NCBI GenBank assembly: GCA_030390025.1
Contig: CM059431.1
Coordinates: 128,280,001 to 128,344,000 of the forward strand
Reading direction: 5' to 3'
DNA from: Squalus acanthias
Lineage: Eukaryota
DNA: 64,000 nucleotides
The notes beneath the pieces are model-generated. The model ran no database searches. It saw only the letters and a list, made by a program, of their open reading frames with translations, and was not told the DNA's origin. Position numbers and translations under genes: made by a program. Position 1 is the stretch's first letter. Every line of letters starts with the position of its first letter. Below, piece after piece: positions 3,385 through 58,000 of the stretch.

Positions 3385-5245
3385 CTCTCCTCTTCTTAGG
3401 CAGTCCTCGGAACCGAGGATGACTTGCTTCCACACTAAAAATGAGTTCTCAAATGACTGATGAATCCAATGCAGGACCTACAGTCTCTGTCACAGGTGGG
3501 GCAGACGGTGGTTGAAGGGGCGGGTGGGTGGGGTGCTTGGGTTGATGTGCGCTCCTTCCGCTGTTTGTGCTTGGCTTCCGCTTGTTCCCGGCGAAGAAAC
3601 TCATGTTCGGCGCCTTCCCGAATGCTTTCCTCCACTTTGTGCGGTCTTGGGCCAGGGATTCCCAGGTGTCGGTGGGGATGTTGCACTTTTTCAAGGAGGC
3701 TTTGAGGGTGTCCTTGAAGTGTTTCCTCTGCCCACCTGGGGCTCTCTTGCCGTGTCAGAGCTCCGAGTAGAGCGCTTGTTTTGGGAGTCTCGTATCGGGC
3801 ATGCAGACAATGTGGCCCGTCCATCGGGGCTGATCGAGCGTGGTCAAAGCTTCGATGCTGGGGATGTTGGCCTGAGCGAGAACACTGACATTGGTGCGCC
3901 TATCCTGCCAATGGATTTGCAGGATCTTGCAGAGGCAGCGTTGGTGGTACCTCTCCAGTGCTTTGAGGTGCCTGCTGTATATGGTCCATGTCTCTGAAGC
4001 ATACAGGAGGGCAGGTATCACTACTGCTCTGTAGACCATGAGCTTGGTGCTGGGTTTGAGGTCCTGGTCTTCAAGCACTCTCTTCCTCAGGTGACCGAAG
4101 CCTGCACTGGCACACTGAAGGTGGTGTTGGACTTCATCATCGACGTCTGCCCTTTTTGACAGTAGGCTTCCCGAGGTATGGAAAGTGGTTCACATTGTCC
4201 AAGGCCTCATCATGGATTTTGATAATCGGGGAGCAGTACTTGGTGGCGGGGGCAGGTTGGTAGAGGATTTTTGTCTTACGGATGTTTAGTGTAAGGCCCA
4301 TGCTCTCGTACACTTCGGTGAAGGTGTTGACGATGGTTTGGAGTTCGACCTCAGAGTGTGCGCAGATGCAAACATCATCTGCATACTGTAATTCGATGAC
4401 AAAGGATGGGATGACCTTGGATCTGGACTGAAGGCGACGGAGATTGAACAGTTTCCCATTTGTTCTGTAGATTAGCTCCACTCCAGCAGGGAGCTTACTG
4501 AAGGTGAGATGGAGCATTGCAGCCAGGAAGATCGAGAAGAGTGTTGGTGCGATGGCACAGCCTTGCTTGACCCCGGTCTGTACGTGAAATGGGTCTGTGG
4601 TGGATCCGTTGGTCAGGATCACGGCTTGCATGTCGTCGTGAAGCAGGCAGAGGATGGTGACAAACCTTTGAGGGCAGCTGAATTTGAGGAGGACACTCTA
4701 TAATCCCTCACGGTTGATGGTGTTGAAGGCCTTTGTGAGGTCAAAGAAGGCCATGTACAGCTATTGGTGCTGGTCCCTGCATTTCTCTTATAATTGACGT
4801 GCAGTGAAGATCATGTCCATTGTGCCCCTTAGTGGGAGGAATCCGCATTGCGACTCTGGGGGGAGCTCTTCAGCCACTGGGAGAAGGCGATTGAGGAGGA
4901 TTCTTGTGATGACTTTCCCTGTGGCAGACAGCAGGGAGACTCCTCAGTAATTACCGCAATCGGACTTGTCACCTTTCTTGGAGGCGGTCACGATTACGGC
5001 GTCTCTGAGATCCCCTGGCATGCTTTCCTCCTTCCAAATAAGAGAAACGATTCATGTATTCACACCAATAGTGCTTCTCCGCCATGTTTTAGTGCCTCGG
5101 CAGGGATTCCATCTGCTCCTGAGGCCTTGTTGTTCTTCAGTTGTTGGATGGCCTTTTCAACCTCATGCCGGGCTGGGGTTGTGCTGAGGTGGTGGCGGGT
5201 AGCATGCTGCGGGATGGAGTTGAGGACACTTGCGTCGAAGACAGA
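3385..5245 (-). mobile_element. 5'-truncated RTE-clade LINE (BovB-like), frameshifted
   Basis: ORFs with GVKQGCAIAPTLF, LQYADD, LLYASETWT and CPTCDRDCRSCIGFISHLRTH; 22-bp TSD gacctttgagttcagtgctgga at 3363-3384 and 5246-5267. Confidence 0.92.
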
Positions 5246-15990: not shown

Positions 15991-18900
15991 GACAACTGAA
16001 GAACAACAAGGCCTCAGGAGCAGATGGAATCCCCGCCAAGGCACTAAAGCATGGCGGAGAAGAACTACAGGTGCGAATTCATGAACTCATTTCTCTTATC
16101 TGGAAGGAGGAGAGCATGCCAGGGGATCTCCGAGATGCCGTAATTGTGACCATCATCAAGAAAGGTGAATAAGTCCGATTGCGGTAATTACAGAGGAGTT
16201 TCCCTGCTGTCTGCCACAAGGAAAGTCATCGCAAGAATCCTCCTCAATCGCCTTCTCCCAGTGGCCGAAGAGCTCTTCCCAGAGTCACAATGTGGATTCC
16301 GCCCACTAAGGGGCACAATGGACATGATCTTCACCGCACGTCAATTACAAGAGAAATGCAGGGAACAGCACCAACCGCTGTACATGGCCTTCTTTGATCT
16401 CACAAAGGCCTTCGACACTGTCAACCGTGAGGGATTATGGAGTGTCCTCCTCAAATTCGGCTGCCCTCAAAAGTTCGTCACCATCCTCTGCCTGCTTCAC
16501 GACGACATGCAAGCCGTGATCCTGACCAACGGTTCCACCACAGACGCAATTCACGTATGGACCGGGGTGAAGCAAGGCTGTGTCATCGCACCAACGCTCT
16601 TCTCGATCTTCCTTGCTGCATTGCTCCATCTCACCTTCAGTAAGCTCCCCACTGGAGTGGAGCTAATTTACAAATGGGAAACTGTTAAACCTCCGTCGCC
16701 TCCAGTCCAGATCCAAGGTCGCCCCATCCTCTGTCGTCGAATTACAGTATGCAGACGACGCTTGCGTCTGCGCTCACTCGGAGGTCGAACTCCAAACCAT
16801 CATCAACACCTTCACCGAAGCGTACGAGAGCATGGGCCTTATGCTAAATATCCGTAAGACAAAGGTCCTCTACCAACCTGCCCCCGCCACACAATACTGC
16901 CCCCCGATTATCAAAATCCACGACAAGGCCTTGGACAACGTGAACCACTTTCCATACCTCGGGAGCCTACTGTCAACAAGGGCAGACATCGATGACAAAG
17001 TCCAACACCGCCTTCAGTGTACCAGTGCAGCCTTCAGTCACCTGAGGAAGAGAGCGTTTGAAGACCAGGACCTCAAACCCGGCACCAAGCTCATGGTCTA
17101 CAGAGCAGCAGTGATACCCGCCCTGCTGTATGCCTCAGAGACATGGACCATATACAGCAGGCACCTCGAAGCACTGGAGAGGTACCACCAAAGCTGCCTC
17201 CGCAAGATCCTGCAAATCCATTGGCAGGATAGGCGCACCAACGTCAGTGTTCTCGCTCAGGTCAACATCCCCAGCGTCGAAGCTTTGACCACGCTCGATC
17301 AGTTCTGATGGACGGGTCACATTGTCCGTGACATGAATCTTGTCATTCATGTGGAAATGACTTATGAAGTAATACTGGGCGGCCTGTGGGTGGTGCTGTC
17401 CAGGGAGAGTATAAATACTCGGGCATGGGCCCAGCTTGCTCAGGACATTCTTTAACAGGAACTAGTGAAGGATGCAACTAGACCTCCATGTTGAAAAACA
17501 GTTGATTAAAGCTTTGTTTAACGCTTAGACCAAGTGCCTAGTAGTTTTCTTACGTCAATTTAATCAACTGGACCTGCTCCACGCTCTGAGTAGTTTTGGG
17601 AACAGACGGCTACAACTCAAACGGTGGAAGGGAAGCAGAAGTAGTAATCATGGATAAACTATGCTCCCTAACACGTTGCATTCCATCAGGTCTCTCCTTT
17701 CTATATCCACCAATGTTACTCCTCACGAACGATTCTTCGGGTTCCAGCGTCGCTCCACTCATGGGACGTCCCTACCATCATGGTTGGCAGCTCTGGCTCT
17801 GGGCTGCTCCGAAGATTTGTCCGATCCTCCAAGAGTGATCTCCTCGTCGACGAGGTGGAACTAACGGATGTCAATCCTACATACGCGTACATGTAGTACC
17901 CTGATGGCCGGGCGTCCACAGTTTCACTTCGGGATCTGGCTCCCTGCCGAACCGGTCCCACGGACCCAATCGATAGAGAGATCCGTATTAACGACGCCGA
18001 TATTCCTGCGCTCCTCCGAGGATGACGCCCTACCTGGGACAACAAGGGATCTGCCAGCTTCTCCGCCGGATCAACCCGGGAACAGAGCGCACCCCACGGG
18101 ATGGCCACCCAAAACCAGAACGCCAGGTCAATCACCAGCTACTGAGCAGGATGAAGCCAGCTCTGCGCCGGTGGGGACCTGCATCCGGAGCCACGATTTC
18201 CCCAGTCCCCCTCAGGTCGATCAAGGCGACACGGACTCTGCCAGCCTGCCGGTACGGACCAAGCGACCCAGGGACCAAAAAACAGTCCGAGGAGACGTGC
18301 CTTCCGGCCTCCAACGGAGATCCAAGCGAGTGCGTCTATTCTTAGTCCGATTAATTCGGTAGAAGGAAGCCGCCGGACTTCCAATCTTTCAGGCGGGAAG
18401 AATGACATGAATCTTGTCATTCATGTGGAAATGACTTATGAAATAATACTGGGCGGCCTGCTGGTGGCGCTGTCCAGGGAGAGTATAAATACTCGGGCAT
18501 GGGCCCAGCTTGCTCAGGACATTCTTTAACAGGAACTAGAGAAGGACACAACTAGATCTCCATGTTGAAAAACAGTTGATTAAAGCTTTGTTTAACGCTT
18601 AGACCAAGTGCCTAGTAGTTTTCTTACGTCAGTCCGCATGCCTGATACGAGACTCCCAAAACAAGCGCTCTACTCGGAGCTCTGGCATGGCAAGAGAGCC
18701 CCAGGTGGGCAGAGGAAATGCTTCAAGGACACCCTCAAAGCCTCCTTGAAAAAGTGCAACATCCCCACCGACACCTGGGAATCCCTGGCCCAAGACCTCA
18801 CAAAGTGGAGGAGAAGCATCCAGGAAGGCGCCAAACACCTCGAGTCTCTTCGACGGGAGCAAGCGGAAGCCAAGCGCAGGCAGCGCAAGGAGCGCAAATC

Positions 18901-19048
18901 AACCCAAGCACCCCACCCTTCATCCACCGTCTGCCCCACCTGTGACAGAGACTGTAGGTCCCGCATTGGACTCATCAGTCACCTGCGAACCCATTTTTAA
19001 TGTGGAAGCAAGTCATCGTCGGTTCCGAGGGACTCCCTAAGAGAAGAA
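15991..19048 (+). mobile_element. 5'-truncated RTE-clade LINE interrupted by an LTR element
   Basis: ORFs 15969..17308 (NYRGVSLLS, PESQCGFR, FFDLTKAFD) and 18608..19000 (C-terminal Cys/His motif); RTE sequence resumes at 18632. Confidence 0.92.
17329..18631 (+). mobile_element. Internally deleted Ty3/Gypsy LTR retrotransposon (TRIM-sized, 1303 bp)
   Basis: Two 229-bp LTRs (17329-17557, 18403-18631; TGAC...GTCA; about 8 differences); 5-bp TSD gtccg (17324-17328, 18632-18636); purine tract aggcgggaagaa before the 3' LTR; integrase C-terminal remnant (LHSIRSLL..TNVTPHERFF; LVDEVELTDVNPTYAY..PDGRASTVSLRDLAP). Confidence 0.93.
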
Positions 19049-19391
19049 GGGAAGAAGGGAAGAGGGGACCCCCTTGGTCTGCAGGAGGATGCAGAGCAGC
19101 ACGAGCTGCTGCAGGAGAGAGGGACAGGAGGGACAAGGGCGAGGTGGACTCCTTCCACCCAACGGATACAGGACCTCATCCCCCAGGACCTCCAGTGCCG
19201 TGGTTGAGAAGCTGTGCGCCCTCTCACTCGGTCTCTGAGCCATCCTGCAACGTGCCGCTGAGTGTCAGCCAACACAATCACACCTTCAGTGGAAGTGGGT
19301 GAGTGGAGCCCACATTTACTGCTCCACGAAAGTTGCATCTAATCAATGCTTGAGTGCTAAACCTGCAGAGCTCTCTGTTCTACTACCTCCA

Positions 19392-20484
19392 ACCTACGTC
19401 GTCCAGTACTTCCCAGGAGCGGAGAAACTATGCCATGTTCTTTGCAGCCTTCAACATGTCATCGATGACGATGAACACCTCGCTAAGGCCATCCCCACGC
19501 CTCCACTACTCGCCTTCAAACAGCCGCCTTACCTCAAACAGACCATCGTTCGCAGCAAATTACCCAGCTTTCAGGAGAACAGCGACCATGACACCACACA
19601 ACCCTGCCACGGCAACCGCTGCAAGACATGCCAGATCATCAACACAGATACCATCATCACACATGAGGACACCACCCACCAGGTACATGGTACATACTCA
19701 TGTGACTCGGCCAACGTTGTCTACCTCATACGTTTCAGGAAAGGATGCCCCGGAGCATGGTACATCAACGAGACCATGCAGACACTGCGACAACGTATGA
19801 ACGGACACCGCACAACAATCACCAGGCAGGAGTGTTCCCTCCCAGTCGGGGAACACTTCAGCAGTCAAGGACATTCAGCCTCCGATCTTTGGGTAACCGT
19901 TCTCCAAGGCGGCCTTCGAGACACACGACAACGCAAAATCGTCGAGCAGAAACTGATAGCCAAGCACCGCACCCATGAGGACGGCCTGAACCGGGATCTT
20001 GGGTTCATGTCACGCTACATGTAACCCCACCTGACGTAGAGTCATCCAGACTCGAGTCGTCGTTGGCTTGTTCTCTCTACACAGATGTGGCTGGACCTGC
20101 TGTGATTTCCAGCAAAAAAAGTTTTTTGTTTTCCATACAGACCCCAGCATCTGCCACATTTGACCCCTTGTGACCCCACCTCATTGTCTTTGATGTAATG
20201 TCTTCCTGACTGACCTGTTTGGACACCATCCACACCTTTGATTGCCGTGATTATCTCTCTGCCGAGGTGTGATAAAGGGCAGTTAGAAAGATTAACTGTA
20301 ATCATCTGGCAGTGCTCTCTGACTATATATGCTGTGCCTATATGTATTTCTTCACTTCACCTGACGAAGGAGCAGCGCTCCGAAAGCTTGTGATTTCAAA
20401 TAAAGCTGTTGGACTATAACCTGGTGTTGTGCGACTTCTCACATTTGTCCACCCCAGTCCAACACCGGCATCTCCACATCATGG
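19392..20484 (+). mobile_element. 5'-truncated Penelope-like element (GIY-YIG endonuclease and tail)
   Basis: ORF 19299..20024: CKTC, SCDSANVVYLI, WYINETMQTLRQRMNGH, GLNRD; 12-bp TSD ctactacctcca (19380-19391, 20485-20496). Confidence 0.92.
20357..20393 (+). ncRNA. Minimal type I hammerhead ribozyme motif in the Penelope tail
   Basis: tcac-CTGACGA-a-ggagc agc gctcc-GAAA-gc-TT-gtga: both core boxes, stem II ggagc/gctcc, stem I tcac/gtga, palindromic minimal stem III (aagctt). Confidence 0.75.
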
Positions 20485-26590: not shown

Positions 26591-26860
26591 GCGGATTTCC
26601 AGCATCCGCAGTATTTTGCTTTTGTTTCACCAGAATAATACCTCAGCTAAAAGGGTTAAATAATGAGGACAGGTTGCATAGATTAGGCTTGTATTCTCTT
26701 GAGTATAGAAGATTAAGGGGTGGCCTAATTGAAGTGTTTAAGATGATTAAATGATTTGATAGGGTAGACAGAGAGAAAGTATGGGCTAAAAATGTGGACG
26801 TTTAGCACCACCGATTACCGCCATATTTGGGGAAAAAAATGGCAGCCGCCACTTCTGTCC

Positions 26861-27064
26861 ACTGCCGGCAGGTCCCGTGTTGACTGCCGGCAGGTCCCGT
26901 GTTGACTGCCGGCAGGTCCCGTGTTGACTGCCGGCAGGTCCCGTGTTGACTGCCGGCAGGTCCCGTGTTGACTGCCGGCAGGTCCCGTGTTGACTGCCGG
27001 CAGGTCCCGTGTTGACTGCCGGCAGGTCCCGTGTTGACTGCCGGCAGGTCCCGTGTTGACTGCC
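26861..27064. repeat. Perfect minisatellite, 9 x 22 bp (actgccggcaggtcccgtgttg) plus a partial unit
   Basis: Direct reading; overlapping ORFs show a 22-aa period. Confidence 0.95.
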
Positions 27065-27446: not shown

Positions 27447-28721
27447 ATGGGGGCTTTCCTGGCAGTTCCCCTTACACTCGAGTATCTTAGGTAGACAGAG
27501 CGGAGGAAGCGAAGAAAAGGAGAAGATGTGGGCAGACGGAGGAGGGGGGCTGCCAGGAGGGCTCTCAACAGGAGGCCTCACCCATGTAGGGTCTTCCGAA
27601 AGCACTTCTCTTATATCCACTTAAGCGAGGAGCAGTGTATTAGGAGGCTCTGCTTCACCAAGGAGGTGGTCACAGAACTCTGCCACCTCCTGCAATCAGA
27701 TCTGCAGCCTGAGAGCAGGGTGAACAGGGCTCTCCCAGTGGCCCTGAAGGTCACCGTGGCCATCAATTTCTTTGCTGGTGGATTCTTCCAGTCTGCAGCA
27801 GGAGACATAGCTAACATCCATCGCTGCATCCGAGAGGTCACTGAGGCTCTCTACACCAGGAGAAGGGAATACATTTTCTCCTCTCTGAGCAGAGAGAAGC
27901 AGGACGAGTGTTGCATGTCAGGATAGCGGGATTCCCCATGATGCAGGGCGCCATCGACTGCACACACGTTGCCTTGCAGGTGCCACATAACAATTCTGGA
28001 TGTTCCGTAACCACAAAGGCTACCACTCACTTAATATGCACTTGTTGTGTGACCATGCCCCGCGCTGCCTGATGATAAATGCCCACTATCCTGGCAGCAA
28101 TCATGATGCCTTCATCCTGCGTCACTCCGGTGTGCTAGCAATCTTCCAGCCACCTCATGAAACCCGAGGGTGGTTGCTCGGAGACAAGGTCTATCCGCTC
28201 TACACCTGGCTCATGACTGCCCTCCACAACCTCACCACTCGTGCCCAGCAATCATATAATGAGAGCCCTGCTTTTCACCAGGAACATCATCGAGCAGAAC
28301 ATTGTTTACTGAAGCTACGGTTCCGCTGCCTTGACCGCTCGGGAGGAGCCCTCCAGTACTCGGCAGAGCGGGTGTCCCACTTTGTGGTGGTCTGCTACAT
28401 GCTTCACAACTTGGCCATCATGAGAGCCCAGCCCTTGCCTCCAGGGATTGCAGGACCACCTCAGGAGGAGGACGAGGAAGCGGAGAAGGAGGAAGAAGAA
28501 GATGAGCAAGAGGAAGAGGAAGAAAGAAAGACTTGCATTTATATAGCGCCTTTCACGACCATCAGACGTCTCAAAGTGCTTTACAACCAAAGAAGTACTT
28601 TTTGAAGTGTAGTCACTGTTGTAATGTGGGAAACGCGGAGGAGGAAGTGAGGAGGCAGGCAACCATTCCCCCTTCTGGACCAGCTGTCCATGAATGCCTC
28701 ATCAGACTCCGATTCCAATGA
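27447..28721 (+). pseudogene. HARBI1-like DDE transposase, frameshifted; SINE/L2 tail inserted at about 28520-28630
   Basis: LPVALKVTVAINFFAGGFFQ, GAIDCTHV, NHKGYHSLN, YPGSNHDAFIL, WLLGDKVY, LKLRFRCLDRSGGALQY, CYMLHN. Confidence 0.9.
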
Positions 28722-28967
28722 ATGAAATCCCAGACCCCTGTTGCTCATCACATCCCCATCATACCATCCCTCTGTCATGGAATGGCACAAAGCTGAAATG
28801 AGAGCCACCAAAAAAGATTCCAAACAAAATTATTAAATTCATCAACACTCAATTTGCACAAACGCTATCAACTAATCACCCTTGTGCCATCGTTAGTGCC
28901 TGTTGTTCAGGTGCCCTTTCCTGATCTAGTTCTCCTACGAAGTGCTCCCCCAGTGGCTGCAGCATGG

Positions 28968-30277
28968 CTACTGAGTTTCTATGCAGGAGACTTCAGATGG
29001 CCTTGCAGGATGACGTCCAGCAGCTCTGAACCTAGAAGGCCCGGCTGTAGACTGCACCGCCTCGGCATGGGTGGTAGCAGTCTGGGCTGGCTGTCTGATC
29101 GGCAGCAGCAAGGGCAATGGCAGAGTGGCAGTGGTGGGAACAGAAATGCTGTCAACCTGATAGAGGACAATAGTTCCTGAGACATCCCCGGGGTGGCGCC
29201 TCAGCATTCCTAGCAAACGTGAACTTGCCCTCCGGCGAGCTGATCCCCGAGCTAACCTTACCCCCTGGCCTTGCTGCAGCCCACTCGTGCCTGGTGCCTC
29301 AACCTGTGCAGATCCCGCCTCTTTACTACCCTCTAAATTCTGCGCAGTGCCAGTTTCTGAGCTGGTGTCTGCAAGTGTCAGATGCAGTGTAGGTGTCCTT
29401 TCTTCTTCATCTCCACTCTCCTCCATTACTTCGGGGACGGGCTGTGCAGGTGGCAGATCTTGGTCATCTGAAAGCAGAAAGGCACAAGAGTTGGGTTATG
29501 GTGAGGGGAGGGGGGGGGAGCGGAAAGCAAAATATCCATGCATAGAACATCAGCAGCTTGTAAGTGAGAAGAGATTGTGGGATGAGGGTTAAATGAGATG
29601 TGAGAAGAAGGATTAGGAATGATCATACAGTTGTTGTCCCCAAGGGCTTCAACCTTACCAGTTGCCACGGATTCCGTGACCTGCCACCCAATGATCTCCA
29701 GCACTCGCTCCTCCAGTTGGCTCAGGGCCTGTATGGCAGCCTGCCTCCTGCCTGTCTGTCGCTGCTCCCTCCTGTTATGCGCGACCTTGGCCTGCAAGAG
29801 AAAGAGAAGTGTGTGAGTGAGTGTGGTGCAATGTGCTTGGGTGATGTGCCTGCCATAGTTGAAAGCTGTCAGTGTGTGCAAAGTGTGAGCTATGGGTGTG
29901 AGTGCTGAAGCAGTGTTGTGTGTGTGAGGGTGAAGTGAAGGTATGATTGTGAGGTCTGAGTTGTGATAGGTAGAGCTTGTTGGTAGGTGAGTGCTGGTGG
30001 TGAGGTGCATTGAGCAGTGTATGAGGCTTGTGGTGCCTTCACTCACCTTGACCTGCCGTGTGAGGTCATTAAACCTCTTGCGGCACTGGATCGCCGACCT
30101 GGGGACCACAGTGCTGGCCGTCACATAGTCGGCTTTCTCCTGCCAGAGCTTTCTCGATGTATGGGGTGAGGGCTGCAGGAAGAGGATAGTCCGCCTCCTC
30201 TCCACGGCCAACACCAGTCTCTCCAGACCCACGTCTGAAAATCCTTGGTCTCTCTCCCTGTACTGAGGCTCAGCCAT
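28968..30277 (-). CDS. Harbinger Myb/SANT-like DNA-binding protein, three predicted exons (30277-30047, 29791-29629, 29467-28968), about 297 aa
   Basis: FSDVGLERLVLAVERRR..LW..PRSAIQCRKRFNDL; canonical GT/AG at all four junctions; frame stays open across both introns. Confidence 0.75.
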
Positions 30278-31049
30278 CTGTTTCCAGTACTGTCTGCTTC
30301 CAGGTGAAGTTCAAACTGGATTAACAATGAAGTGCTGTAGCATCAATGCACCTCCCCTTTAAGTACTGAATAAAGTCTGTGCCAAACATGACTGGGAATT
30401 AGACTGAACCTGATATTGGCCCACCTGTTGAGTGGTAAGCCAATGAGCAGCAGTTTTAATGCTGAGATCAGCACCATAATTACGTTAATGAGGAATGAGC
30501 ATGAATTTAGTTTGACCTGGCGCAGCTTAACATTGTTGGGCCTGACACCGCCTGTTTTCTGGCCATATCTAATATTTAGTCCTATTGCCTCTGGTTGGGG
30601 AGTTCAGAACAAGAGTGACAACCTTAAAATTAGAGCTAGACCATTCAGGGCTAATGTTAGAAAGCACTTCTTCACACAAAGGGTAATGGAAATCTGGAAC
30701 TCTCTCCCCGAAAAAGCTGTTGAGGCTAGGCCAATTGAAAATTTCAAAATTGAGATTGATATATTTTTGTTAGGCAAGGCTAGTGAGTGTTATGGAACCA
30801 AGGCAGGTAAAAGATCAGCCATAATCTAATTGAATTGTGGAACAGGCTCGAGAGGCTGAATGCCCTACTCCTGTTCCTATATTGCTATGTTCCTATATAC
30901 ATGAATCAGTGGAATAAGTTGATAAATTGTAATAATGTGTGATTTCTTTTGTTGAGGCAAGATACAAATGCTATTAATGAAGTATTTGGGTAGGGTGGGG
31001 GGGAAATCAAAGAAGGATTTTGATTTGCCTTCTCAATTTTGTTTTATTG

Positions 31050-32573: not shown

Positions 32574-34396
32574 GGGCCAAGATTTTGTGGGGGTCAGCGA
32601 GCGTGATCAGTGGCGGGTCAGGTGGGAAAGTGTTTTTATTACCCCAGCAGATCGTGACCCCACTGTGAACCCGCTGCCACGCGCCTTTCCCCAATGTCGG
32701 GTCTGTCAGTGCTGAGCAGACCCAAAACGCAGCGGCGGGGGACCCAATTCAGGTCATTATGACCTTGTTTAGAGATCATTAAAAATACATTTGAGCTCAC
32801 CTTTTGATTTTATGTGCTCGCCCACGGGGTCCTCGCTGCTCGGGGATCACATCTGTTAAACTGAGGTGGGAGATGAATGGCCAATGAATCAGCTGATTAC
32901 TTGACAGCTTGAAATTTGCTATAAAAGCTCCCATCTCACAGCTGTTCACTTTCAAGCTCAGAAGCTGTTGCTTACTGCATTTGGAAGACAGATTGAGCTT
33001 TATGCAATTTGCAAGTGTTTGGAGCAAACTCTCTATCCAGTTTCACCTCATTGGAACAACCTCTCTCACCACTGACAGATCGCTTCTGTCATCTCAACTT
33101 CACCTGCCATCTATCCCATCAGCATGGGTACCATTTATACTCTCTCAACTTGGTCCTCAGAATCTGACCATGATGAGCCCAAACACCAGCAGCACCAGGC
33201 ACACCAGCAGCACCAGGCACACCAGCAGCACCAGGCACACCAGCAGCACCAACAACAACACCAACCTTCACTGCAATCACTTGATGCTGCACAGGACAGA
33301 GGGCATCAGCACCCGACCACATTGCTTCCCGGGAGGCTAGGGTTGTCCTCACCATGGCCAGATTTACTTCACTTGACGCTGTACACCCTGGCTGCCACAT
33401 GATGCACCAGGTTGGCATCCACACCACACCAACACAATAAAGCATCCCTACAATGCCCAAGCCATTTCTTTCACACTCATCAACATTGCAGGGGAAACCG
33501 TTATGTCTCATCATTCACTGCAACTAACTAAGCTACTTCCAAAGGTGCACACAAATCTGTCCAAGAATGCAAAGTGTTGAAAATAAAGGTTTCAATGTTT
33601 GACACCTCATTAACAGAAACTTTACATGAACATTGCATAAAACACCCAAGTGCCTACCCTTGTGTGTTGTGAGTTAGTATGATTGCACTAGGATGAGTGT
33701 GAGTGTGAGGGGTGGCGAGTGAGATGGGGAAGTGATAATATAGATAGAGAGGGATGGGTGGAGGTCTGAGGTAAATTGGTGTGAGCAAGGATGTGCAGGA
33801 GTAGGGTAGCGATGTCAGAGTGATGGGGATGTGATGAGAGGCCAGCAGGATGAGGTTGAGTTTGGCTTTGTACTAATGTTTCGTGATCTACTGAAATCAT
33901 TGAAATGTTTACGGCACTGCACCTGGTCCTCCTGACCACATCCCTGCTTGTGCCCTCCTCTGCAATGTGCAACCAGGCTGTGTTGATCTCCTGTGGAGAT
34001 CTCTTCCACCCATGGGAAGGGAAGAGGACCTCCCTGCGTGCTGTGACTCCCTCCATAAGCATGTGGAGGGAGTCATGGGAGAGCCTGGGTGCAGCCGTGT
34101 ACCTTTCTGCAGTGCTTGTCAGTGTTTGCAGCACCTCAATGCTGTAGAACACTGACAGCACAAATATCAAAATAAATTTGGATATGGTCACTTTAAGGAA
34201 CCCGGCTGATGACACGTCATCAAATGACGTCACCAGACCCACTTCCTCTAATTGGCCGGGATATGTGCTGGGCGGGCTTAACAAGCCCCATCAATGGAAA
34301 TTCATTTCAGACAGTGGGATGGAGACAGCAGCGGAGTCGGGAATCACCACTGACATCACCCGCCATGGACCCACCGAGGTCAGCAAAATTGTGGCC
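32574..34396. mobile_element. Non-autonomous Harbinger deletion derivative (family copy A)
   Basis: Imperfect TIRs gggccaagattttg / caaaattgtggcc; transposase N-terminus on + (33124) and Myb exon 1 on - (PRLSHDSLHMLMEGV..REVLFP..AW). Confidence 0.75.
33184..33251. repeat. 18-bp tandem repeat (caccagcagcaccaggca) x about 3.8
   Basis: Direct reading; single partial unit in the sister copy near 37458. Confidence 0.85.
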
Positions 34397-43139: not shown

Positions 43140-45095
43140 ATGACTTCTTCCAGAGGCAAGGCAGTTCCTCGATTTAATGATGAGTCCCTCCAAGTTCTTG
43201 TGGATGCTGTAAGAGGGCGCAGGGAGATTCTCTTCCCTCCGGATGGCCGGAGGAAGCCTCCTCAGCAGACCAAGGCAGCCTGGCTGCGCATTGCTGAGGA
43301 GGTCAGCACAAGGTCCATATGTTCACGCTCATGAATTCAGTGCAGGAAACGCTTGAATGATCTTTTGTGAACATCAAAAGCGAATATCCCATCAGACTTA
43401 CCTTCAATCTGCTTCTCTTCTCTTCTCATCACCAGCACTCTGCGTTGTAAGCCTGCTCCTCCACATACCACCTTACCCTTACTTCCCTTGCACCCTTACC
43501 TATCCATCCCTGTCTCTGCACTGAATCACTTCAGCATCCTGAATATGCACCCCTTAGACTCGCTCTCACTGTTATGCAGTGACAACAACTAATAACACAG
43601 AGGGAGCTAGCTTCCTCTTGGCACCTTAGCCCATCTTCGTCTCCCTCAAAGCTTCTATGGTAGGGATTCTTCACACTCACTCTATCACTGGTTGTAACTC
43701 TGCTTGTGTCCCCCCTTGCAGGAAAAGATAGCCCACAATAAGAGGGAGAGAGCACTGACTGCAGGAGGGACACCAACCCTAGCAACGTTGACAAGTGTTG
43801 AGGAGGCCGCACACAAAATTATTGGAGGTGGCGAGGATCTGGAAGTGGGCGATGGAGAGATGGGCACACTAGAGGAAGCTAGTGACATAATAGAGTTTCA
43901 TCCCTCTCAGATGGCAATGGCATATGATGTTCATAGAGAGTCGCATTGTATCATCTGCTCAAAAGGATGTGTCTGCTACATCAATATCAGACGTCTAAAT
44001 CATGTCTTTACTCTCCCACAGGACCATCGAGCACCCCCCTCCCCACGATCCAGGACGAAGAGCTGGACAACTCCTCAGAGGAACCTGAAGCCTCTGAGGG
44101 AGCAGCGTCACCAGGACTCAGCGCGCCCAGCACCAGCGCAGCAACGCACAACTCGGTGAGGGCCTCGCAAGTTAGAGTAGTGTTGCCACCTGGTCGATCA
44201 CAGCGCACAAGTGTGCATCAGGAGATGGTGGAGACAGCGACAGCAGTGGAGAGTCCTCGGCGGAGGTTGCAGGACTCTTCTAGCTCTGCTGAGCTGCATG
44301 CAGACGCTGTGCCTCTGGGGCCATCCAGAAAAAGAGCGTCTCGGGAAATACAGGAACAAGTGCAGGTGTCTCTGGAAGGGTTTGCCACCAGGGTTAGTGC
44401 GAGTTTGGATAGAATGGAGGAGTCCATCTCTAACATCAGCACTACTGTCGTGGAGGCAATGGCGCATGAATGCACCACCATGGATAGGATGGCAACCTCC
44501 ATGGATAGGATGGCAACCTCCGTGGAAAGGCTGGCTACCTCCGAGGAAATGCTGGCTACCGCCATGGAGGAAATTAGTCGCCAGAGTCAGGAAAACATGG
44601 TGACTGTTTAAAATAGAATGACATCTCTGGAGGAGCGATGGGCAGCTATTGAGCAGAGCGACCAGAGCTTCATGAACGTCCTTATGATGAGGACTGCCAG
44701 TGCAGGTATGGGTCCTCATGGCCCCCTGATGTGCAACAAGGTGCTCTCCAGCCACTTGCCAGCACTGAGGTGCAGCTGACCCATGAGAGGGATGTTGTTG
44801 GCAGGACACAAGGAAGTGTGGGCTCCTCTCAAAGTGCTCACATGACCATGCCACTGTGGAGCCCTCAGTCAGAGACCCACTTTGCAGAGTCAACTGAGAT
44901 GGCTGTTTCAGCCTCTGCACAGCCGCAGAATAGCAGACTGCTGAAGAGCCCTCCCAGGCTCCCAAACCCAGAGGACACCCACCAAAGGCATCTAAGCGGG
45001 CGCAGCATCCTAGTCAGCAAGGTGCCTCTACATCTGCTGAAGCCACAGGGGCAGCACCACGTAGAAGCATGCATAAGAGAAAGATTAAGCACATA
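43140..45095 (+). pseudogene. Harbinger Myb/SANT-like gene, three exons (acceptors before 43722 and 44022), with stops
   Basis: PRFNDESLQVLVDAVRGRREILFP..AWLRIAEEV..CRKRLNDL; EKIAHNKRERALTAGG; acidic tract; heptad repeat region. Confidence 0.8.
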
Positions 45096-46100: not shown

Positions 46101-48106
46101 TATATATATATAGTCAAAAGGGGACTCGCGTGGGTGTTTTGTCTATTTTTTCTGACTGTTCTTGGTTTATGATCCTTTTGTCATGTGTAAAAGAAAAATT
46201 ATGGCAAACAGTTGATTGTGTGGCCTATGTGTTCTGGGAAATGGCAAAAGTGCATTGAGGGCTCAGAGCGACTTGCTTTTGTAATGCTGATGGTGAAAGT
46301 GATCGGAAATAACAGGGTCTAGCAGAGATCATGTATGACGTTGGACAAATGTCGCCTGCAATTACATAGCCTCTATGCTTGAAGAGAAAGCTTATGTGAT
46401 TGTGGCATGGCAGTGTGCATACCCTGCTTGACGGGCAGCAGTGAACTGGAAGGATGTTGCATTGGTCACAATAGGGCCTGCAAGGCACCCCTCGTCCTCC
46501 TCCTCCTCCTCTTCCCAGGAAGATCTGCGCTGAGCCACGCAGCAGCTGCTACTCCGATTATGAGGACCAGGTTGAGAGGACATAAATTTTTCCCATCCCC
46601 TTGTTATAGATTTCATTTGAGGCAGCAAGCTTGCAAGCGCACAGTCGAAGTGGCCTGAAAAAATTCCATTCATGCCACACCGCAGATGGGTGTCAGCTTG
46701 AACAGTCCAACGTCAGTAGAAATCTTATCCCATACCTACAACAGCAAAGTTGTTGCATTTGAATGTCAGCCATGTTTCAGGGGCGCTTTTAAAGTGCTCC
46801 AACAATGAATACAAATCATGTCCTCCAGCAACTCGTCTCCTTGAACCTGGCCTGTTTCTGACAAGACGAGAAACAGGAACCAGAAGCACAAAAATGGGAA
46901 ACCACTATCAAAATAGGATTAGCAAGGCAGTCAACAGGCTGTTAACTGCCTTAACTACCTGTCCCACGGGTTCCAGTCGGGTCAGTTTGGGAGCGGCTGA
47001 CCCGACACTCACGAAAATCGGGTGGGGGCGGGATGGAGGCGGGTTGGGTGTCTGAAGTCATTTTTTCCAATTTTCGCTACAGACCTGCCTCCAAACCCGC
47101 CTCCTCAGAGCTATTAAAATCGAGGCCTATAGCTTTGGAAGGAAAAGGCTGGATGAGATAATGGAAGATAGCCCTCAAGATGTTGTAAGGCAATGATTGG
47201 TCAAGTACAGAAAGCATGTGTAATGGTTGTGAGAAGACCCCTGACAGGTGGGAGATAACAGGAGGGTATACCCTTTTTCCATAGTTTAGACAAAGAACTC
47301 GACATGTTATTGGGCACCTTGTTTTAAGGGGAACCTCTATAGGTTAAATGGTCCTGTCCATATTCTACTCCAGGCCCACCCCTAAAAAGAGAATAAGAGA
47401 AAGACCTAGAGAGCCCTGAGCTCAGACCGTGGAGCGGAGGGCTCCCAAGAGTGAAATCGGTGGTCTAACACTCTTCCAAAGGTAGAACCATGCTGACCCT
47501 AGTCTAACACTCGTGGGTAGTTCAAGAAGAAGAGAGAGAGACATGTGAGACAAGAAGGAGAACGAAGAAGTAAAGTTGTTCCTGCACGCCAGCCATCTTT
47601 CCGATTGGGTCCGGTACCAGCTGCTTGTCACAGTCATATGTTTTTGCTGTATAACTAGCGTGTTATATTCCGTCCTAAACTCCGATTAAACACAATATAC
47701 CCACCATATTGGTTTGCACTCAATCCAGTTTATTTGAAAGACCAGAGATGAGTTAATCTCAACAGCGAGTTAGGTTGTGTGTGAGCAATCCCCTCGGGAG
47801 AGGCGGCTTTTCAATTTTAATATTGTCAACGATATTAACATGGGTTTTGGAATTTAACTGTGGGTGCATGTGTTTCCCGGGCTTCCTGGAACTCGCAAGT
47901 GAAAGCAAGGTGAGAAAACTGTGGCAATTGACGGGGCTGATGACATGACAGCCTGATTGTGTGAAAGGCTTTGTTCACAACACTTGCGCTGAGAGATTAT
48001 GTTCGCAAATATAGAGGTTACTATCACAGCTTTGGAGGTTACTGTCACAATTTTGGAGGTTTGTACATCTGATCTCCACTTTGGAGCTGTGATCTATCTG
48101 ATCAGT

Positions 48107-49262
48107 ATGGGTGCTTCTTATGCTGTTTTACTTTGGACCTCAGATGAGGACCAAGATGACCAGCAGCATCAAAAGCACCACCAGCAGCAGCAGGAGCAGC
48201 AGGAAGAGCACCAGCAGGAGCATCAACAGCCTGCTCCTCACAGACCTGCTGCTCCACAGCGGAGAGGTGCAGCTTGCAGGAGGCCATACCTGCAACACAG
48301 GGTGTACAGGCAGAGGATAAGATTCCTCAACATGTCGGAACACCAGTGTCTCAGGAATATCAGGGTCTCACGTCAGGTGCTGGCAAACATTTGCAGCCTG
48401 CTGGGACAAGACCTGCTGCCAAATGGACCTGGTGGCCACGCTTTACCAGTGGTTGTCAAAGTCATCACCGCCCTCAACTTCTTTGCCCCTGGCTGCTTCC
48501 AGGGCTCTGCCGGAGATATTTGCAGGCTCTTGCAGTCAGCGGCCTACAAATGCATAAGACAATTGACTGATGGATTGTTTGCCAGGGCAGGGAATTATGC
48601 CAGTTTTGCTACTGATGTTGCCAGTCAGAGTGAGTGGGCGCTCGGGTTTGCTGCTCTAGCTGGCTTCCCACAGTTGCAGGGTGTCATTGACAGCACGCAT
48701 GTGGAAATTAAGGCAACCACATCACCCAAGAGTATTCATCAACCGCAATGGCTATCACTCCATCAATGTGTAGCTGGTGTCCAACCACAAAAAGATGCTT
48801 ATGCAAGTATGCTTGCGTGCTATGGCAGTCCACCCTCCCTGATCTCTTCACAACTCGAAGCAGACTTGCTGGCTGCTCGGAGACAAGGGATACCCAATTA
48901 AAACGTGGCTGATGACACCCAACCAATGAGGCCCAGTTGCAATACAATGAAAGCCATATGACAGCGAGATATGTCATTGAGCAAGCCATCGGTATGCTGA
49001 AGATGTGCTTCAGATGCCTAGACAGATCTGGAATAGCACCCTTCAATACGTCCCAGCCAGGGTCCCCAGAATGGTCATGTTGTACTGCGCTCTGTACAAC
49101 ATTGCGCAGCAGCGAGGTTTGGACCTGCAGGAGGAACAAGGCGCAGAGCACAGAGCGTCTTCGGAGAATTCTGAGGAGGAGGAAACGGAAGGTGTTATGA
49201 CCAAGGCACCAGCTGTGGCGCACCTTGCTGCTCGGGATGCCCTCATTATTGCGAGGTGATCT
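48107..49262 (+). pseudogene. HARBI1-like transposase, frameshifted
   Basis: LPVVVKVITALNFFAPGCFQ, AGFPQLQGVIDSTHV, IEQAIGMLKMCFRCLDRSG, CALYNIA. Confidence 0.88.
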
Positions 49263-49600
49263 TAAGTTCCACCAGTCCATCCATCTGACAGCCACATGTA
49301 AAAGCGACTTAACGCTGCCCTCCCTTCCCCCAACGCACAGCAGTCCTGCAAACAACCAAGCATCCCTTTCACAGCCCCCCATTGCTCAGCATCATTTCTT
49401 GTCTTATCACTCATCACAAGTGAAAAGACCACCTGCCAGGCAGCAATCAAAAATGGGCAACACGGGAAAGTGGTGGAAACAACTAATATTTATGTGTCTC
49501 AAAAATAAAACAGAAACTTACCAATCTAACATTGTGTAACACATCTACATACATACCCTTGTGCAACGACAAATCTTTACTCTTCCTCTTCCTAGCACTT

Positions 49601-51344
49601 CTACTTGGTGCAACCCTGTGGCTTCAGCAGAGGTAGAGGCAGGCTACTCAGATCCCTGCTTAGACTGCTGAGAAGCTCTTGGCCGATATCCTTTGGGTTT
49701 TGGAGCCCGTGAGGGCGCCGGCAAAGACTGCTCCACCTGACTCGGCCATCGGGATATGAGGCAGCATGTTGGGTACTGACTTGGGGGGTGGGGGGTGGGA
49801 GGCAACGGGTGAGAAGTGGAAGTGCTTTGAGCTGAGTCCCCACATCCATGTCCTCTTTCACCATCATCCCTCTCATGGCCCACCCGCACATTCCTGCTAG
49901 CAATGAGCTGGAGAGCAGTGGGGCGATGAACGGCCAAGGCTAGGTTTTCATGAATCCTATTTAAGGTGATATTCATAGTGTGCAAGCCATCGGTGAAGGC
50001 CTGCATGCACTTGTTCGATTGTCGCATTTCATGCTTCATGCAGGTGGCCACTCTTTCCATGGACAAAGACATCATTGCAAAGGCCTGTGACATCATGTCA
50101 CTCATGCTTGAGACGGACTCCTCCAATCTGTCTTCAAGCATGCACAGTGTGGCTGGAACGCCTGCCAGTACATCGCACATTCTTTGCTGCTGCTCCAGAA
50201 TTATCCTCTTCACTGACAGCCCCCGAAGTACAGCATCTGCGTACAGCTGAGCAGAGCTTGGAGCATCATGCGGCCTCCGACATGGACTCTCCACTGCTGT
50301 TTCTGTCTCCACCATCTGCTCTTGCTCACTTGTGACGTGTGAGTCACCAGGTGAAAACCCAACTATCTTCCTTACTGGTCCCACTGATGTATGAGTATCC
50401 GAGCTGGTGCATGGTCTGTATGAGTCCTGTGATGGTGCACCCTCAGAGTGAGTGATCTCCTCTGAGGACTCATTGTCATCCTACTGCACCACCTCCTGCG
50501 GGACACTTGAAGGCCCTGTGAGAGATTAAAGACATGAATTAGAACTGTCAAGGTAAGAATGTTTTAAGTGATCATTATGCACATGATCATATTTCATTCA
50601 CTGCTGACATCAAGCGACTGTCTGATATTTAATTCTGTCATCAGGTAGCTGGGAAGCCCCCATCACTCCATCTCTGATGGCCAAGCATACTGAGACTCCA
50701 CTGATGTCCAGCGCTTCCTTCTCTGCAGCTGTCAGTTGCGAGAGCGCTGGAGGGCCACCTCCGGTTCTATGTCTTTTCCTCATGTGCTATGCTCTCTTCT
50801 CCTGCAAGTAGGGAAAGAAGAGATCTATAAGTGAGATTAATGGCATGTGTTGAACAGATGATGGAGAGCATTTGTTGAGGGTGATTATGAGGGAGAGGCA
50901 TAACATTGAATAAAGATGTGTGTGATTGTCAGTGGTGGATGTGCAGATGGAGATGTGAGGAAGTGCATAGACAGAGAGGGATGGATGCACCTGCAAGGTA
51001 TGTTGGTGTGAGGAGTGATGTGCTGGAGTAGGCGTGAGGAGGCAGAGTGAGGGGGTTGGGGTGATACACTCATCAGGATGTAGGTGAATGTGCCACCCTA
51101 CTCACCTTTCCTGCCCTGCTTAGGTCATTGAACCGCTTTTGGCATTGAGTCCACCAGTGTGGCACCACGCTCCTGCTGCTGACCTCATGGGCAACCTCCA
51201 GTCACGCCTTCTTTGATTCACCTGCAGACTTCTTCCTCCCATCAGTGTCTAAGAGTATCTCCCTGCGGGGCCTTACAGCCCCCACAGCACATCCAGGGAG
51301 GCGTCACTAAGACGACGCGGAGCCTCTGAGCGTGTGTGCTCCAT
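49601..51344 (-). pseudogene. Harbinger Myb/SANT-like gene, three exons (exon 1 51344-51106; exon 2 from 50801; exon 3 from about 50515)
   Basis: MEHTRSEAPRRLSDASLDVL, QCQKRFNDL, gtgag donor, RTGGGPP in exon 2, coiled-coil-like ORF 49644..50384. Confidence 0.78.
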
Positions 51345-56369: not shown

Positions 56370-58000
56370 TTTCATCTAGCATGTATCTGCCTATTTCACC
56401 AGTCTTTTTATGTCGTCTTGAAGTCTGTTACTATCCTCCTCACTATTTATTACATTTCCGAGTTTTGTGTCAGCTGCAAACTTTGAAATTATGCCCTGTA
56501 TACACAAGTCTGGATCATTAACATATATCAAAAAGAGCAGTGGTCCCAATATGGACCCCTAGTGGACACCACTGCACATTTCCCTCTAGTCTAAAAAACA
56601 ACTTCGCTAAGGCCATCCCCACGCCTCCACTACTTGCCTTCAAACAGCCGCCTAACCTCAGAAGTACCATCGTTCGCAGCAAATTACCCAGCTTTCAGGA
56701 TAACAGCGACCACGACACCACACAACCCTGCCACGGCAACCTCTGCAAGACATGCCAGATCATCAACACAGATACCATCATCACACGTGAGGACACTACC
56801 CACCAGGTACATGGTACATACTCATGTGACTCGGCCAACGTTGTCTACCTCATACGTTGCAGGAAAGAATGCACCGCGGCATGGTACATCGGCGAGACCA
56901 TGCAGACACTGAGACAACGTATGAACGGACACCGCGCAACAATCACCAGGCAGGAGTGTTCCCTCCCAGTCGGGGAACACTTCAGCAGTCAAGGACATTC
57001 AGCCTCGGATCTGCGGGTAAGCGTTCTCCAAGGCGGCCTTAGAAACACACGGCAACGCAAAATCATCGAGCAGAAACTGATAGCCAAGTTCCGCACTCAT
57101 GAGGACGGTCTCAACCGGGATCTTGGGTTTATGTCACGATACATGACGTGATCCAGACTCGAGTCGTCGTTGGCTTGTTCACAGATGTGATTCCCAGTAA
57201 AAAAGTAAAAATTTTAAAGTTTATCGTTTTACATACTGACTGCAGCTTTTGACACATTAGACCCCCTGTAACTCCACCTCATTGTCTCAGTTGTATCTTG
57301 CTATGTCTTTGATGTGGTAGCTTCCTGGCTGACCTGATTGCCTTTTGTCACACCTCGGCAGATAAACAGTCAGGATGATTAAATTTAGTCGTCTACCATT
57401 GTAAGGTACACATGCATTGTTCTCTATCTATATATGCTTTGGCGATTCTGTATCTCTTTACTTCACCCGACGAAGGAGCAACAGCTCCGAAAGCTTGTGA
57501 TTTCAAATAAAACTGTTGGACTATAACCTGGTGTTGTGCGACTTCTCATTTTTAAAAAACAACTGTTCACCACTATGCTCTGCTTTCTGTCCATTAGCAA
57601 ATTTCATATCCACGCAGCCACTGCTCCTTTAATCCCATGGGCTTCAATCTTGCTAACAAGTTTATTATGTGGTACTTTATCAAACACCTTTTGAAAGTCC
57701 ATATACACATTAACTGCACTATCCTCATCAACCCTCTCCATTACTTCATCAAAGAACTCAATTAACTTAGTCAAACTTGATTTGCCGTTAATAAATCCAT
57801 GCTGGTTTTCATTTATTCACCCATAGTTTTCCAAGTGGCAACTAATTTTGCCCTGGATTAAAAGTTTCCCCACCACCGATGTTAGGCTGACTGGCTTGTA
57901 GTTGCCGAGTTTAACCCTCTCCCCTATTTTGAACAGAGATTTAACATTTTCAATCTTCCAGTCCTCTGGCACCACTCCCATATCTAAAGGCAGATTGCAA
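56370..58000 (-). mobile_element. Older CR1 RT fragment split by a Penelope element
   Basis: ORF 57817..58071 (VPEDWK, NYKPVSLTSVVGK); KFAADTK-like DNA near 56470. Confidence 0.75.
56604..57552 (+). mobile_element. 5'-truncated Penelope-like element (GIY-YIG and tail); hammerhead core mutated (CCGACGA) at 57463-57500
   Basis: ORF 56540..57151: VVYLIRC..C..WYIGET..R..H..GLN; 12-bp TSD taaaaaacaact (56592-56603, 57553-57564). Confidence 0.92.

What the first reader, a model, noticed from the sequence alone, without database searches (positions are those of the whole stretch)
17499..17570. LTR retroelement whose PBS position is complementary to its own LTR: candidate tRNA-independent self-priming
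Seen: one base after the 5' LTR end (17557) there is no TGG tRNA-type PBS. Instead tttaatcaactg (17559-17570) is the exact reverse complement of cagttgattaaa inside the LTR (17499-17510; also present in the 3' LTR). Annealed, the 3' end of the LTR segment points into U5, the geometry needed for minus-strand priming. Known: Tf1/sushi-group elements self-prime using about 11 nt at the 5' end of the mRNA. Inference: here the complementary segment lies about 90 nt downstream of the TATAAA (near 17409) and overlaps the putative ATTAAA poly(A) signal. It could therefore be a different self-priming mode (internal or 3'-end primer) or a hairpin that masks the 5' poly(A) signal.
Basis: partly seen in the sequence, partly recalled or inferred. 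Interest (0 to 1): 0.75.

Follow-up and report, generated by a model that had tools for sequence, protein, structure and literature searches.

The report
Self-priming Gypsy retrotransposon with tRNA-like primer
This cut-down jumping gene and about twenty related families from other genomes carry, where a host tRNA normally docks, a short sequence that pairs with the element's own end-repeat, so they likely start copying themselves with a piece of their own RNA, a piece that resembles one arm of a threonine tRNA.

Summary
Observation confirmed. The 12-mer pair lies in a 1.3-kb, internally deleted copy (17329-18631, 229-nt LTRs, 5-bp target duplication) of a 4.5-kb single-ORF Ty3/Gypsy family without a chromodomain. 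In 22 families the primer-binding site (PBS) starts 1 nt after the LTR and pairs with that family's own LTR (237 of 242 positions, 15 different 11-mers; 0 of 20,000 permutations), so self-priming is likely. Added here: the duplex ends in AAA directly before a conserved hairpin (16 of 21 families), which marks a likely cut site; the Tf1 'pretzel' helices are absent; PBS variants with 1-2 mismatches were inherited across insertions; the clade motif matches the D-arm of host tRNA-Thr(AGT) better than chance. With G-U pairs a tRNA-Ile/Thr 5' fragment fits this family's PBS almost as well as its own LTR, so that rival is weakened, not excluded. The start site could not be mapped. A TATA box 89 nt upstream, shared with a sister family, suggests an internal primer here, but most relatives lack it. 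The scan already reported this clade several times in this genome and others. New variant of a known mechanism.

The parts
17324..17328 (+). Left target-site duplication GTCCG
   Evidence: Same 5-mer at 18632-18636
17329..17557 (+). 5' LTR, 229 nt, TGAC…GTCA
   Evidence: Direct repeat with 18403-18631, 8 differences in 229
17410..17415 (+). TATAAA, candidate promoter; would put the start near 17442 (inferred)
   Evidence: Kept in sister family B at the same spacing; 1.2% minority letters in 94 copies against 2.3-5.2% in the LTR regions outside the TATA box and the segment; start site not mapped
17451..17496 (+). Predicted hairpin just upstream of the segment (this family and family B only)
   Evidence: Fold z -2.0 and -1.7, weak
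17499..17510 (+). LTR segment complementary to the PBS, the candidate self-primer; 11-nt core 17500-17510; holds ATTAAA at 17505-17510
   Evidence: pairing probability 0.77-0.99 per pair in the folded leader
17511..17535 (+). Predicted hairpin opening on the first base after the duplex; the junction 17510/17511 is the likely cut site (inferred)
   Evidence: 16 of 21 families with P>0.5 against a null mean of 9.1, maximum 15 in 200 shuffles; stem letters listed
17558..17558 (+). One-base spacer between LTR end and PBS
   Evidence: One base by the register used, A in 19 of 21 families
17559..17570 (+). Primer-binding site, no TGG
   Evidence: unchanged in 84 of the 100 listed of 121 pattern matches in G000
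17571..17660 (+). Leader and gag start (ATG at 17650); deletion junction at about 17650-17660
   Evidence: Full-size copies match only internal bases 1-93 here; sister-family alignment
17660..18362 (+). Broken remnant of the integrase C-terminal part (frameshifts, a stop)
   Evidence: Translation matches the end of P0001 from a full-size copy
18391..18402 (+). Polypurine tract abutting the 3' LTR
   Evidence: same tract in full-size copies
18403..18631 (+). 3' LTR, with the second copy of the segment at 18573-18584
18632..18636 (+). Right target-site duplication GTCCG

Best explanation
The site after the 5' LTR pairs with a 12-base piece of the element's own LTR, and that piece likely serves as the primer for reverse transcription after a predicted cut between its terminal AAA and the hairpin that follows. 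Shown: identity as an internally deleted Ty3/Gypsy copy; complementarity; a fixed register 1 nt from the LTR end; covariation across families. Predicted by folding: a 12-bp duplex closing a 47-nt loop whose first bases form a hairpin. Inferred by analogy with Tf1: the 5' copy of the segment folds onto the PBS in cis, the element's RNase H cuts at 17510/17511, the new 3'-OH is extended through U5, and the strong-stop DNA jumps using the short R stretch between the cut and the poly(A) site. In this family the transcript probably starts near 17442, so the primer would be a fragment of about 70 nt whose last 12 nt pair, not an 11-mer. The same duplex would hide the only poly(A) hexamer in the 5' LTR. 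Split of my odds: self-priming in some form 0.75, of which 5' copy 0.5 and 3' copy or second RNA 0.25.
For: Chance 3-7 in 20,000. Of 80 metagenome loci, 30 had a gag start, 28 of them enough upstream DNA, and 21 of these 28 have a run of 10-18 complementary bases in the same geometry; control 7 of 269 random positions. Four of the 7 misses are imperfect copies that still show the pair. Five of 7 genome-contig loci show it too. In 22 families 237 of 242 cells are Watson-Crick pairs with 15 distinct PBS 11-mers; cross-family mean 8.0 of 11; 0 of 20,000 permutations. Direct compensatory cases: sister family B has a matching one-base insertion on both sides (9 copies); L057 and L061 differ by one matched change. 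Best Watson-Crick run against 87 distinct G000 tRNA sequences is at most 7 nt in the same register. The own-LTR duplex beats three tRNA fragments in 22 of 24 rows. At the positions where tRNA has G, the PBS has T and the LTR has A, which a tRNA-templated PBS would not keep (reasoning from the standard reverse-transcription scheme). Hairpin at the predicted cut. Tf1 precedent: first 11 bases pair with the PBS and RNase H cuts between bases 11 and 12 (PMC7175516, passages).
Against: No RNA or cDNA end was seen. Most families were entered because a scan found complementarity, and they are related, so the permutation figure overstates the case. The window family is one of the 2 of 24 rows where a tRNA fragment pairs more strongly over 20 nt (-19.0 against -14.0 kcal/mol); on the 12-nt core the values are -11.9 (Ile), -10.4 (Thr) and -12.9 (own), and 14% of random tails give the extra Ile pairing. 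Within the family, PBS changes are almost never mirrored in the LTR (1 matched case, L184, among the 15 variant copies fetched, one of which could not be projected), and PBS variants with one or two mismatches sit at several different insertion sites. The Tf1 pretzel helices were not found. Three of 28 loci show nothing PBS-like.
Confidence: 0.72

Rival explanations
1. Self-priming, but with the 3' LTR copy of the segment, or a second packaged RNA, as primer; the 5' end of the template stays whole. This is a sub-case of the best explanation with another donor.
For: Both LTRs carry the segment. A start near 17442 would put the 5' copy 57 nt inside the RNA. An earlier unchecked note (e1-7857552) argued for it.
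Against: Among 76 copies, variants at LTR positions 123-166 stay linked to U3 variants (r2 up to 0.85), not to the U5 side; there was no good U5 marker as positive control, so this is weak. The 5' copy is tethered 48 nt from the PBS and folds on it with high probability.
Confidence: 0.25
2. A host tRNA 5' fragment ending at base 24 (tRNA-Thr(AGT) or tRNA-Ile(AAT), D-arm) is the primer, and the LTR segment is only a competing cover for the PBS.
For: With G-U pairs 11 of 21 families pair over 10 or more nt with a tRNA, 10 of them at the D-arm ending at base 24, against 13 of 168 shuffles. A matrix from 20 families scores tRNA-Thr(AGT) bases 11-26 above 17 of its own 20 members, P about 1e-5 to 8e-5 after 3,600 windows. 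The most distant family (L239) has 10 Watson-Crick pairs with bases 31-40 of the same tRNA, a half-tRNA position.
Against: Nine of 21 families reach only 8 nt, near chance, yet pair with their own LTR. The PBS follows the LTR letter at the wobble positions. The tRNA set is small (123 genes, 17 labels) and enriched by my own patterns; the lead was recalled and the matrix window was chosen after seeing the match.
Confidence: 0.12
3. The duplex only hides the 5' poly(A) signal; priming uses something else (a protein, or another RNA).
For: ATTAAA in the segment is the LTR's only hexamer; 14 of 21 families have AATAAA/ATTAAA in the segment.
Against: Seven of 21 keep the pairing without the hexamer. 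Masking does not need a register fixed 1 nt from the LTR end, where a primer must stop to define U5, and it leaves the element with no primer site.
Confidence: 0.08
4. The inverted repeat is a DNA-level by-product (template switching at a quasi-palindrome) or chance.
For: L184 has the same change in the PBS and the 5' LTR but not in the 3' LTR, which reverse transcription does not explain.
Against: Same register in families only 48-60% identical in RT-RNase H; chance 3-7 in 20,000 for one family.
Confidence: 0.03

Closest known systems
Tf1/Tf2 (Schizosaccharomyces pombe), Tj1, Tosmo1-3: Tf1/sushi group of chromoviruses
   Same: Ty3/Gypsy order gag-PR-RT-RH-IN; PBS next to the LTR's CA complementary to a piece of the 5' LTR; an 11-nt core equal in length to the Tf1 primer (PMC7175516, PMC10085805, PMC4600332; passages).
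   Different: No chromodomain in 25 of 25 homologues or in P0001; no pretzel helices but a local hairpin at the cut; segment usually holds the poly(A) hexamer; pairing runs 0-8 nt past the 11-nt core; candidate TATA 89 nt upstream in this family; RT motif mostly YxDN.
Plant Ty1/copia TAR lineage (Houba, Osr-1) and Tcn1 clade
   Same: Self-priming predicted from a complement of 10 or more bases in the 5' LTR, starting 0-5 nt after it (PMC6317226, passages); shows that the trait has been proposed outside Tf1/sushi.
   Different: Other superfamily (TAR) or chromovirus (Tcn1); plant hosts.
Half-tRNA-primed copia lineages (Osser, Bryco, Bianca)
   Same: PBS without TGG, complementary to an internal tRNA stretch; L239 fits bases 31-40 of tRNA-Thr(AGT).
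   Different: Reported only for Ty1/copia in that survey (PMC6317226, passages); here the PBS tracks the LTR.
Helenus/Ajax non-autonomous LTR elements
   Same: tRNA-derived sequence inside LTRs, often tRNA-Thr (PMC10886601, passages).
   Different: Those hold whole box A/box B tRNA-like units and no coding region; here at most a 13-16-nt D-arm likeness, with no Rfam match.
Mag lineage and MolGy clades of metazoan Gypsy elements
   Same: Single ORF, two Cys-His knuckles in gag, wide animal range. The link of the double knuckle to Mag is recalled, from no call.
   Different: No labelled reference sequence was available; the passages read of the two surveys say nothing on the PBS (PMC6238403, PMC8556966).

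Membership tests
Ty3/Gypsy LTR retrotransposon | LTRs TG…CA, target duplication, polypurine tract | tested here: met
   5-bp duplication in the window and in 15 of 20 fetched copies
Ty3/Gypsy LTR retrotransposon | Order PR-RT-RNase H-IN | tested here: met
   Pfam on full-size copies; nearest solved structure Ty3 Gag-Pol, E 2.4e-57. The window copy itself keeps only the integrase end.
Tf1/sushi group | PBS complementary to own 5' LTR instead of a tRNA 3' end | tested here: met
Tf1/sushi group | Chromodomain at the integrase C-terminus | tested here: not met
   0 of 25 homologues tested (of 120 listed) at E<=0.1, and none in P0001 at E<=0.01
Tf1/sushi group | Three-duplex pretzel: PBS-adjacent sequences pair with LTR downstream of the primer | tested here: not met
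   0 of 21 families with z<-2, mean z -0.1; U5-end pairing 0.28 against null 0.36. Crude duplex test; short helices could be missed.
Tf1/sushi group | Primer is the very 5' end of the mRNA | tested here: inconclusive
   Only contigs were served. TATA at -89 argues against in this family; a fixed WG 11 nt from the duplex end could be an initiator, but pairing runs past it in 21 of 23 rows.
Tf1/sushi group | RT groups with chromoviruses | not testable with these tools
   The tree of 140 RT-RNase H sequences has no labelled reference or outgroup
Tf1/sushi group | RNase H cuts the RNA duplex to make the primer | not testable with these tools
   Needs biochemistry
Canonical tRNA-primed LTR element | PBS begins TGG and matches a tRNA 3' end | tested here: not met
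   No TGG in any of 24 rows
tRNA-fragment-primed element | PBS is the Watson-Crick complement of an internal tRNA stretch | tested here: inconclusive
   At most 7 nt in register; 10 nt for L239 at offset 2; 9-10 nt at offset 3 to degenerate copies picked by my own pattern; 11-13 nt with G-U for this family. tRNA set incomplete; snRNAs not tested.
Mag lineage | RT/RNase H phylogeny with Mag, SURL, CFG1 | not testable with these tools
   No reference sequences on hand; motif search of the PMC6238403 supplements found nothing

The most novel reading that the evidence does not exclude
An animal-wide, non-chromovirus Gypsy clade turned tRNA-fragment priming into self-priming by taking the D-arm of tRNA-Thr(AGT) into its LTR. 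The captured piece now serves as primer and poly(A) signal, is cut in front of a conserved hairpin, and in this vertebrate family is released as a capped, hairpin-bearing RNA of about 70 nt, a home-made tRNA substitute used by a reverse transcriptase with YxDN in place of YxDD.
Probability: 0.2. Interest if true: 0.82.

Novelty: new variant of a known kind. Interest (0 to 1): 0.57.

Why it matters
Self-priming has been shown by experiment only for fission-yeast Tf1 and is treated as a mark of the Tf1/sushi chromoviruses. A large animal clade without chromodomain and without the pretzel, pairing its PBS with the poly(A)-signal region, would be an independent solution, or a much older one. The fixed geometry names one phosphodiester bond (17510/17511) to test. 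The likeness to tRNA-Thr gives a testable route for how self-priming arises, a question that the Tf1 group alone cannot answer. The window copy itself is a dead deletion product; the interest lies in the clade.

Tried and rejected
RNA evidence: no RNA holder listed; two layings on four runs each gave contigs only, with no start, end or poly(A) information. Viral contigs: three scans, no relative. Rfam over the element: three matches at E 2.7-4.2, below gathering scores, taken as chance. The bacterial promoter scan does not apply and found nothing of use. Copy-level covariation inside the family: not seen. An upstream hairpin as a clade-wide feature: rejected, z at or below -2 in 1 of 24 rows. 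Pretzel and U5-end helices: not found. Linkage test for the strand-transfer point: inconclusive for lack of U5 markers. Search for more distant families in G000 with the gag of L239: of 40 hits fetched, 35 were this family, 1 was family B, 4 aligned poorly or not at all. Sixteen distant or degenerate loci and L241/L244 scanned for a self-complementary PBS: 1 of 17 gave a 10-nt AT-rich hit, not counted. The 10-nt Watson-Crick hit of the window PBS to a 'tRNA-Ile(TAT)' call is to a degenerate copy selected by my pattern and was not counted. snRNAs were not tested. Primary Tf1 papers (PMC109269, PMC230564, PMC231564, PMC1563812, PMC1369541) are not held; Tf1 details come from passages of later papers. 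Ten paper searches found no description of self-priming in a non-chromovirus animal Gypsy clade; Butler 2001, Repbase Reports and GyDB are outside the library, so absence from print is not shown. One supplement of PMC6238403 (a PDF of pictures) could not be read and may bear on the clade name.

Full report
1. Observation. The 5' LTR runs 17329-17557 and the 3' LTR 18403-18631 (229 nt, 8 differences), flanked by GTCCG on both sides. After one A, 17559-17570 is the exact reverse complement of 17499-17510; the window holds only these two sites and the 3' LTR copy. Runs of 12 or more arose in 7 of 20,000 random window pairs and 3 of 20,000 LTR shuffles. TATAAA starts at 17410. ATTAAA at 17505-17510 is the LTR's only poly(A) hexamer.

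2. The element. The internal part is 845 nt: leader, gag start, then directly the broken end of an integrase and a polypurine tract. G000 (3.7 Gb) gave 3,185 candidates, 40 scored. Of 20 copies fetched, 12 measure 4.2-4.8 kb and 15 show a 5-bp duplication. Their frames give protease, RT, RNase H and integrase in Ty3/Gypsy order; the nearest solved structure is Ty3 Gag-Pol. Homologues at 54-75% identity carry names from crustaceans, a nematode, cnidarians, a tunicate and a mussel. None of 25 tested has a chromodomain. A tree of 140 RT-RNase H sequences, rooted on the most distant one, has no labelled reference, so I cannot name the clade.

3. Covariation. Of 80 metagenome loci, 30 had a gag start; 2 lacked upstream DNA; 21 of the other 28 have 10-18 complementary bases starting 1-3 nt after a CA, against 7 of 269 random positions. 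Four of the 7 misses are damaged copies that still show the pair and 3 show nothing. Of the LTR pairs found independently of the scan, 13 show the pair and 2 do not (L118, L119; L119's repeat is a nested element). Five of 7 genome-contig loci show it. I entered 24 rows, leaving out same-family loci (L058, L059, L062, L079, L112, L125) and two damaged ones (L103, L126). With two more near-duplicates dropped, 22 families give 237 of 242 Watson-Crick cells and 15 distinct PBS 11-mers; pairing each PBS with another family's segment gives 8.0 of 11 on average; 0 of 20,000 permutations reach the observed total. Selection by the scan and shared descent inflate this figure, but the matched changes are direct: family B has one extra base on both sides, and L057 and L061 differ by one matched substitution.

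4. Anatomy of the module. In 23 rows the segment ends in AAA (22 of 23 at each position), has G ten bases from that end (23 of 23) preceded by A or T, and is followed by R-C-C-T (23, 21, 21, 19 of 23); pairing runs 0-8 bases past the 11-nt core, mean 3. The bases after the duplex open a local hairpin in 16 of 21 families; shuffles that keep the first four bases give a mean of 9.1 and a maximum of 15 in 200. The flanking helices of the Tf1 pretzel (described in PMC10085805, passages) were not found: 0 of 21 at z<-2. The poly(A) hexamer lies in the segment in 14 of 21 families. The TATA box at -89/-90 is shared by this family and family B, with CA 32 nt downstream in both and a weak hairpin (z -2.0, -1.7) between it and the segment; 3 of the 22 other rows have a TATA-like hexamer, at other distances. 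In 94 copies the TATA box and the segment vary least (1.2% and 1.4% minority letters; PBS 2.1%; other regions 2.3-5.2%); AT-rich sites mutate less, and the two sister LTRs are similar throughout, so this is modest evidence.

5. Results against a simple reading. Inside the family PBS changes are not mirrored in the LTR, with one exception whose 3' LTR is unchanged. PBS variants were inherited: T>G at position 3 in 7 loci with different 5' flanks, three with a second change; C>T at position 10 in 4; C>T at position 7 in 4; C>A at position 7 in 2. The duplex therefore tolerates one or two mismatches, or such copies were primed in trans. A PBS that is copied from the primer on one strand only would pass on such variants in either model.

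6. The tRNA likeness. From recall I noticed that the segment resembles a tRNA D-arm and fetched tRNA genes from G000: 123 genes, 87 distinct, 17 labels, enriched by my patterns. Watson-Crick runs in register reach at most 7 nt. With G-U pairs 11 of 21 families reach 10 or more, against 13 of 168 shuffles, and 9 stay at 8. A matrix from 20 families scores tRNA-Thr(AGT) bases 11-26 at 21.3 bits, above 17 of its own members; P is 1e-5 to 8e-5 after 3,600 windows, and I would allow another factor of 10-100 for choices made after the fact. L239 pairs over 10 nt with bases 31-40 of the same tRNA. The own-LTR duplex is stronger than three tRNA fragments in 22 of 24 rows; the window family is an exception over 20 nt, but the extra pairing is reached by 14% of random tails and on the core the own LTR is slightly ahead. 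Where the tRNA has G, the PBS has T and the LTR has A, at different positions in different families. A tRNA primer would keep restoring C there. I read the likeness as a possible origin of the module, or as a coincidence of an initiator-like hexamer joined to a poly(A) hexamer (initiator consensus recalled), rather than as the present primer.

7. Mechanism. Most likely the 5' copy of the segment folds on the PBS, is cut at 17510/17511 in front of the hairpin, and primes minus-strand synthesis, as in Tf1 (PMC7175516, passages). The nuclease, the cut and the start site are inferred. If transcription starts near 17442 the primer is about 70 nt long, and plus-strand copying of it would have to stop after about 12 nt, perhaps at the upstream hairpin, which ends 2-3 nt before the segment (speculation). 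Choice between start sites controls Tf2 mobility (PMC5341516, passages), so two starts are possible. A linkage test for the 3'-copy model leaned weakly against it and lacked a positive control. RNA data could not decide.

8. Novelty. Works like Tf1; not a member of the Tf1/sushi group by two tested features. Self-priming has also been predicted for plant TAR copia elements (PMC6317226, passages). Ten searches found no paper on this clade's PBS, but key sources are not held. Papers seen as passages only: PMC10085805, PMC4600332, PMC6317226, PMC5341516, PMC7175516, PMC6934838, PMC3601003, PMC6238403 (plus a motif search of five supplements), PMC8556966, PMC10886601. This scan had already reported the clade as self-priming several times; those notes are unchecked and add no support. 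A word search of the notes for the tRNA-Thr likeness found none. Verdict: real feature, new variant of a known kind, interest 0.57.

Noticed in passing
P0001 (L050:3963-6647, minus) and P0002-P0121: The RT catalytic motif is YxDN, not YxDD, in 94 of the 108 proteins where it was called (121 examined, 13 uncalled), including the young family B; YxDD occurs near the root and again in an inner branch. One paper search for the motif found nothing relevant.
   Followed up: partly
L040, L177, L178, L179 (all C6); L023, L181, L182 (C11, within 2 Mb): Copies that share a PBS variant cluster on one chromosome although their 5' flanks differ: local conversion or local spread. L023 and L182 sit in the same host repeat and may be one insertion duplicated.
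   Followed up: partly
L133-L138, L140-L142: Sister family B in the same genome: 215-nt LTRs 99-100% identical, 92% RT-RNase H identity to this family, 13-nt complement; many copies have long open frames.
   Followed up: yes
L239: The most distant relative (48% identity, YLDD) lies on a contig filed under a bacterial genome bin and is probably eukaryotic carry-over; it keeps the 15-nt self-complement and the hairpin.
   Followed up: partly
window 16150-17328 and 18637-19000: The element interrupts a non-LTR retrotransposon ORF (RTE-like by recall, not tested); a second copy of that LINE lies at about 3435-4700 on the minus strand.
   Followed up: no
window 19239-20024 and 56522-57151: Two related ORF pieces resembling the GIY-YIG endonuclease end of Penelope-like elements (label recalled), 94% alike.
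   Followed up: no
window 26856-27064: Tandem array with a 22-nt unit.
   Followed up: no
window 27991-30310, 33688-34290, 43698-44611, 47993-50480: Several ORF pieces resembling Harbinger-type transposase and Myb/SANT-like partner genes (labels recalled).
   Followed up: no
L119:2789-2971: An element of the L059/L060 family is nested in reverse orientation inside another clade member.
   Followed up: no
L060 and relatives: In some invertebrate-type families the leader is only 17-20 nt and the paired PBS reaches the gag start codon, so the duplex might also govern translation.
   Followed up: no
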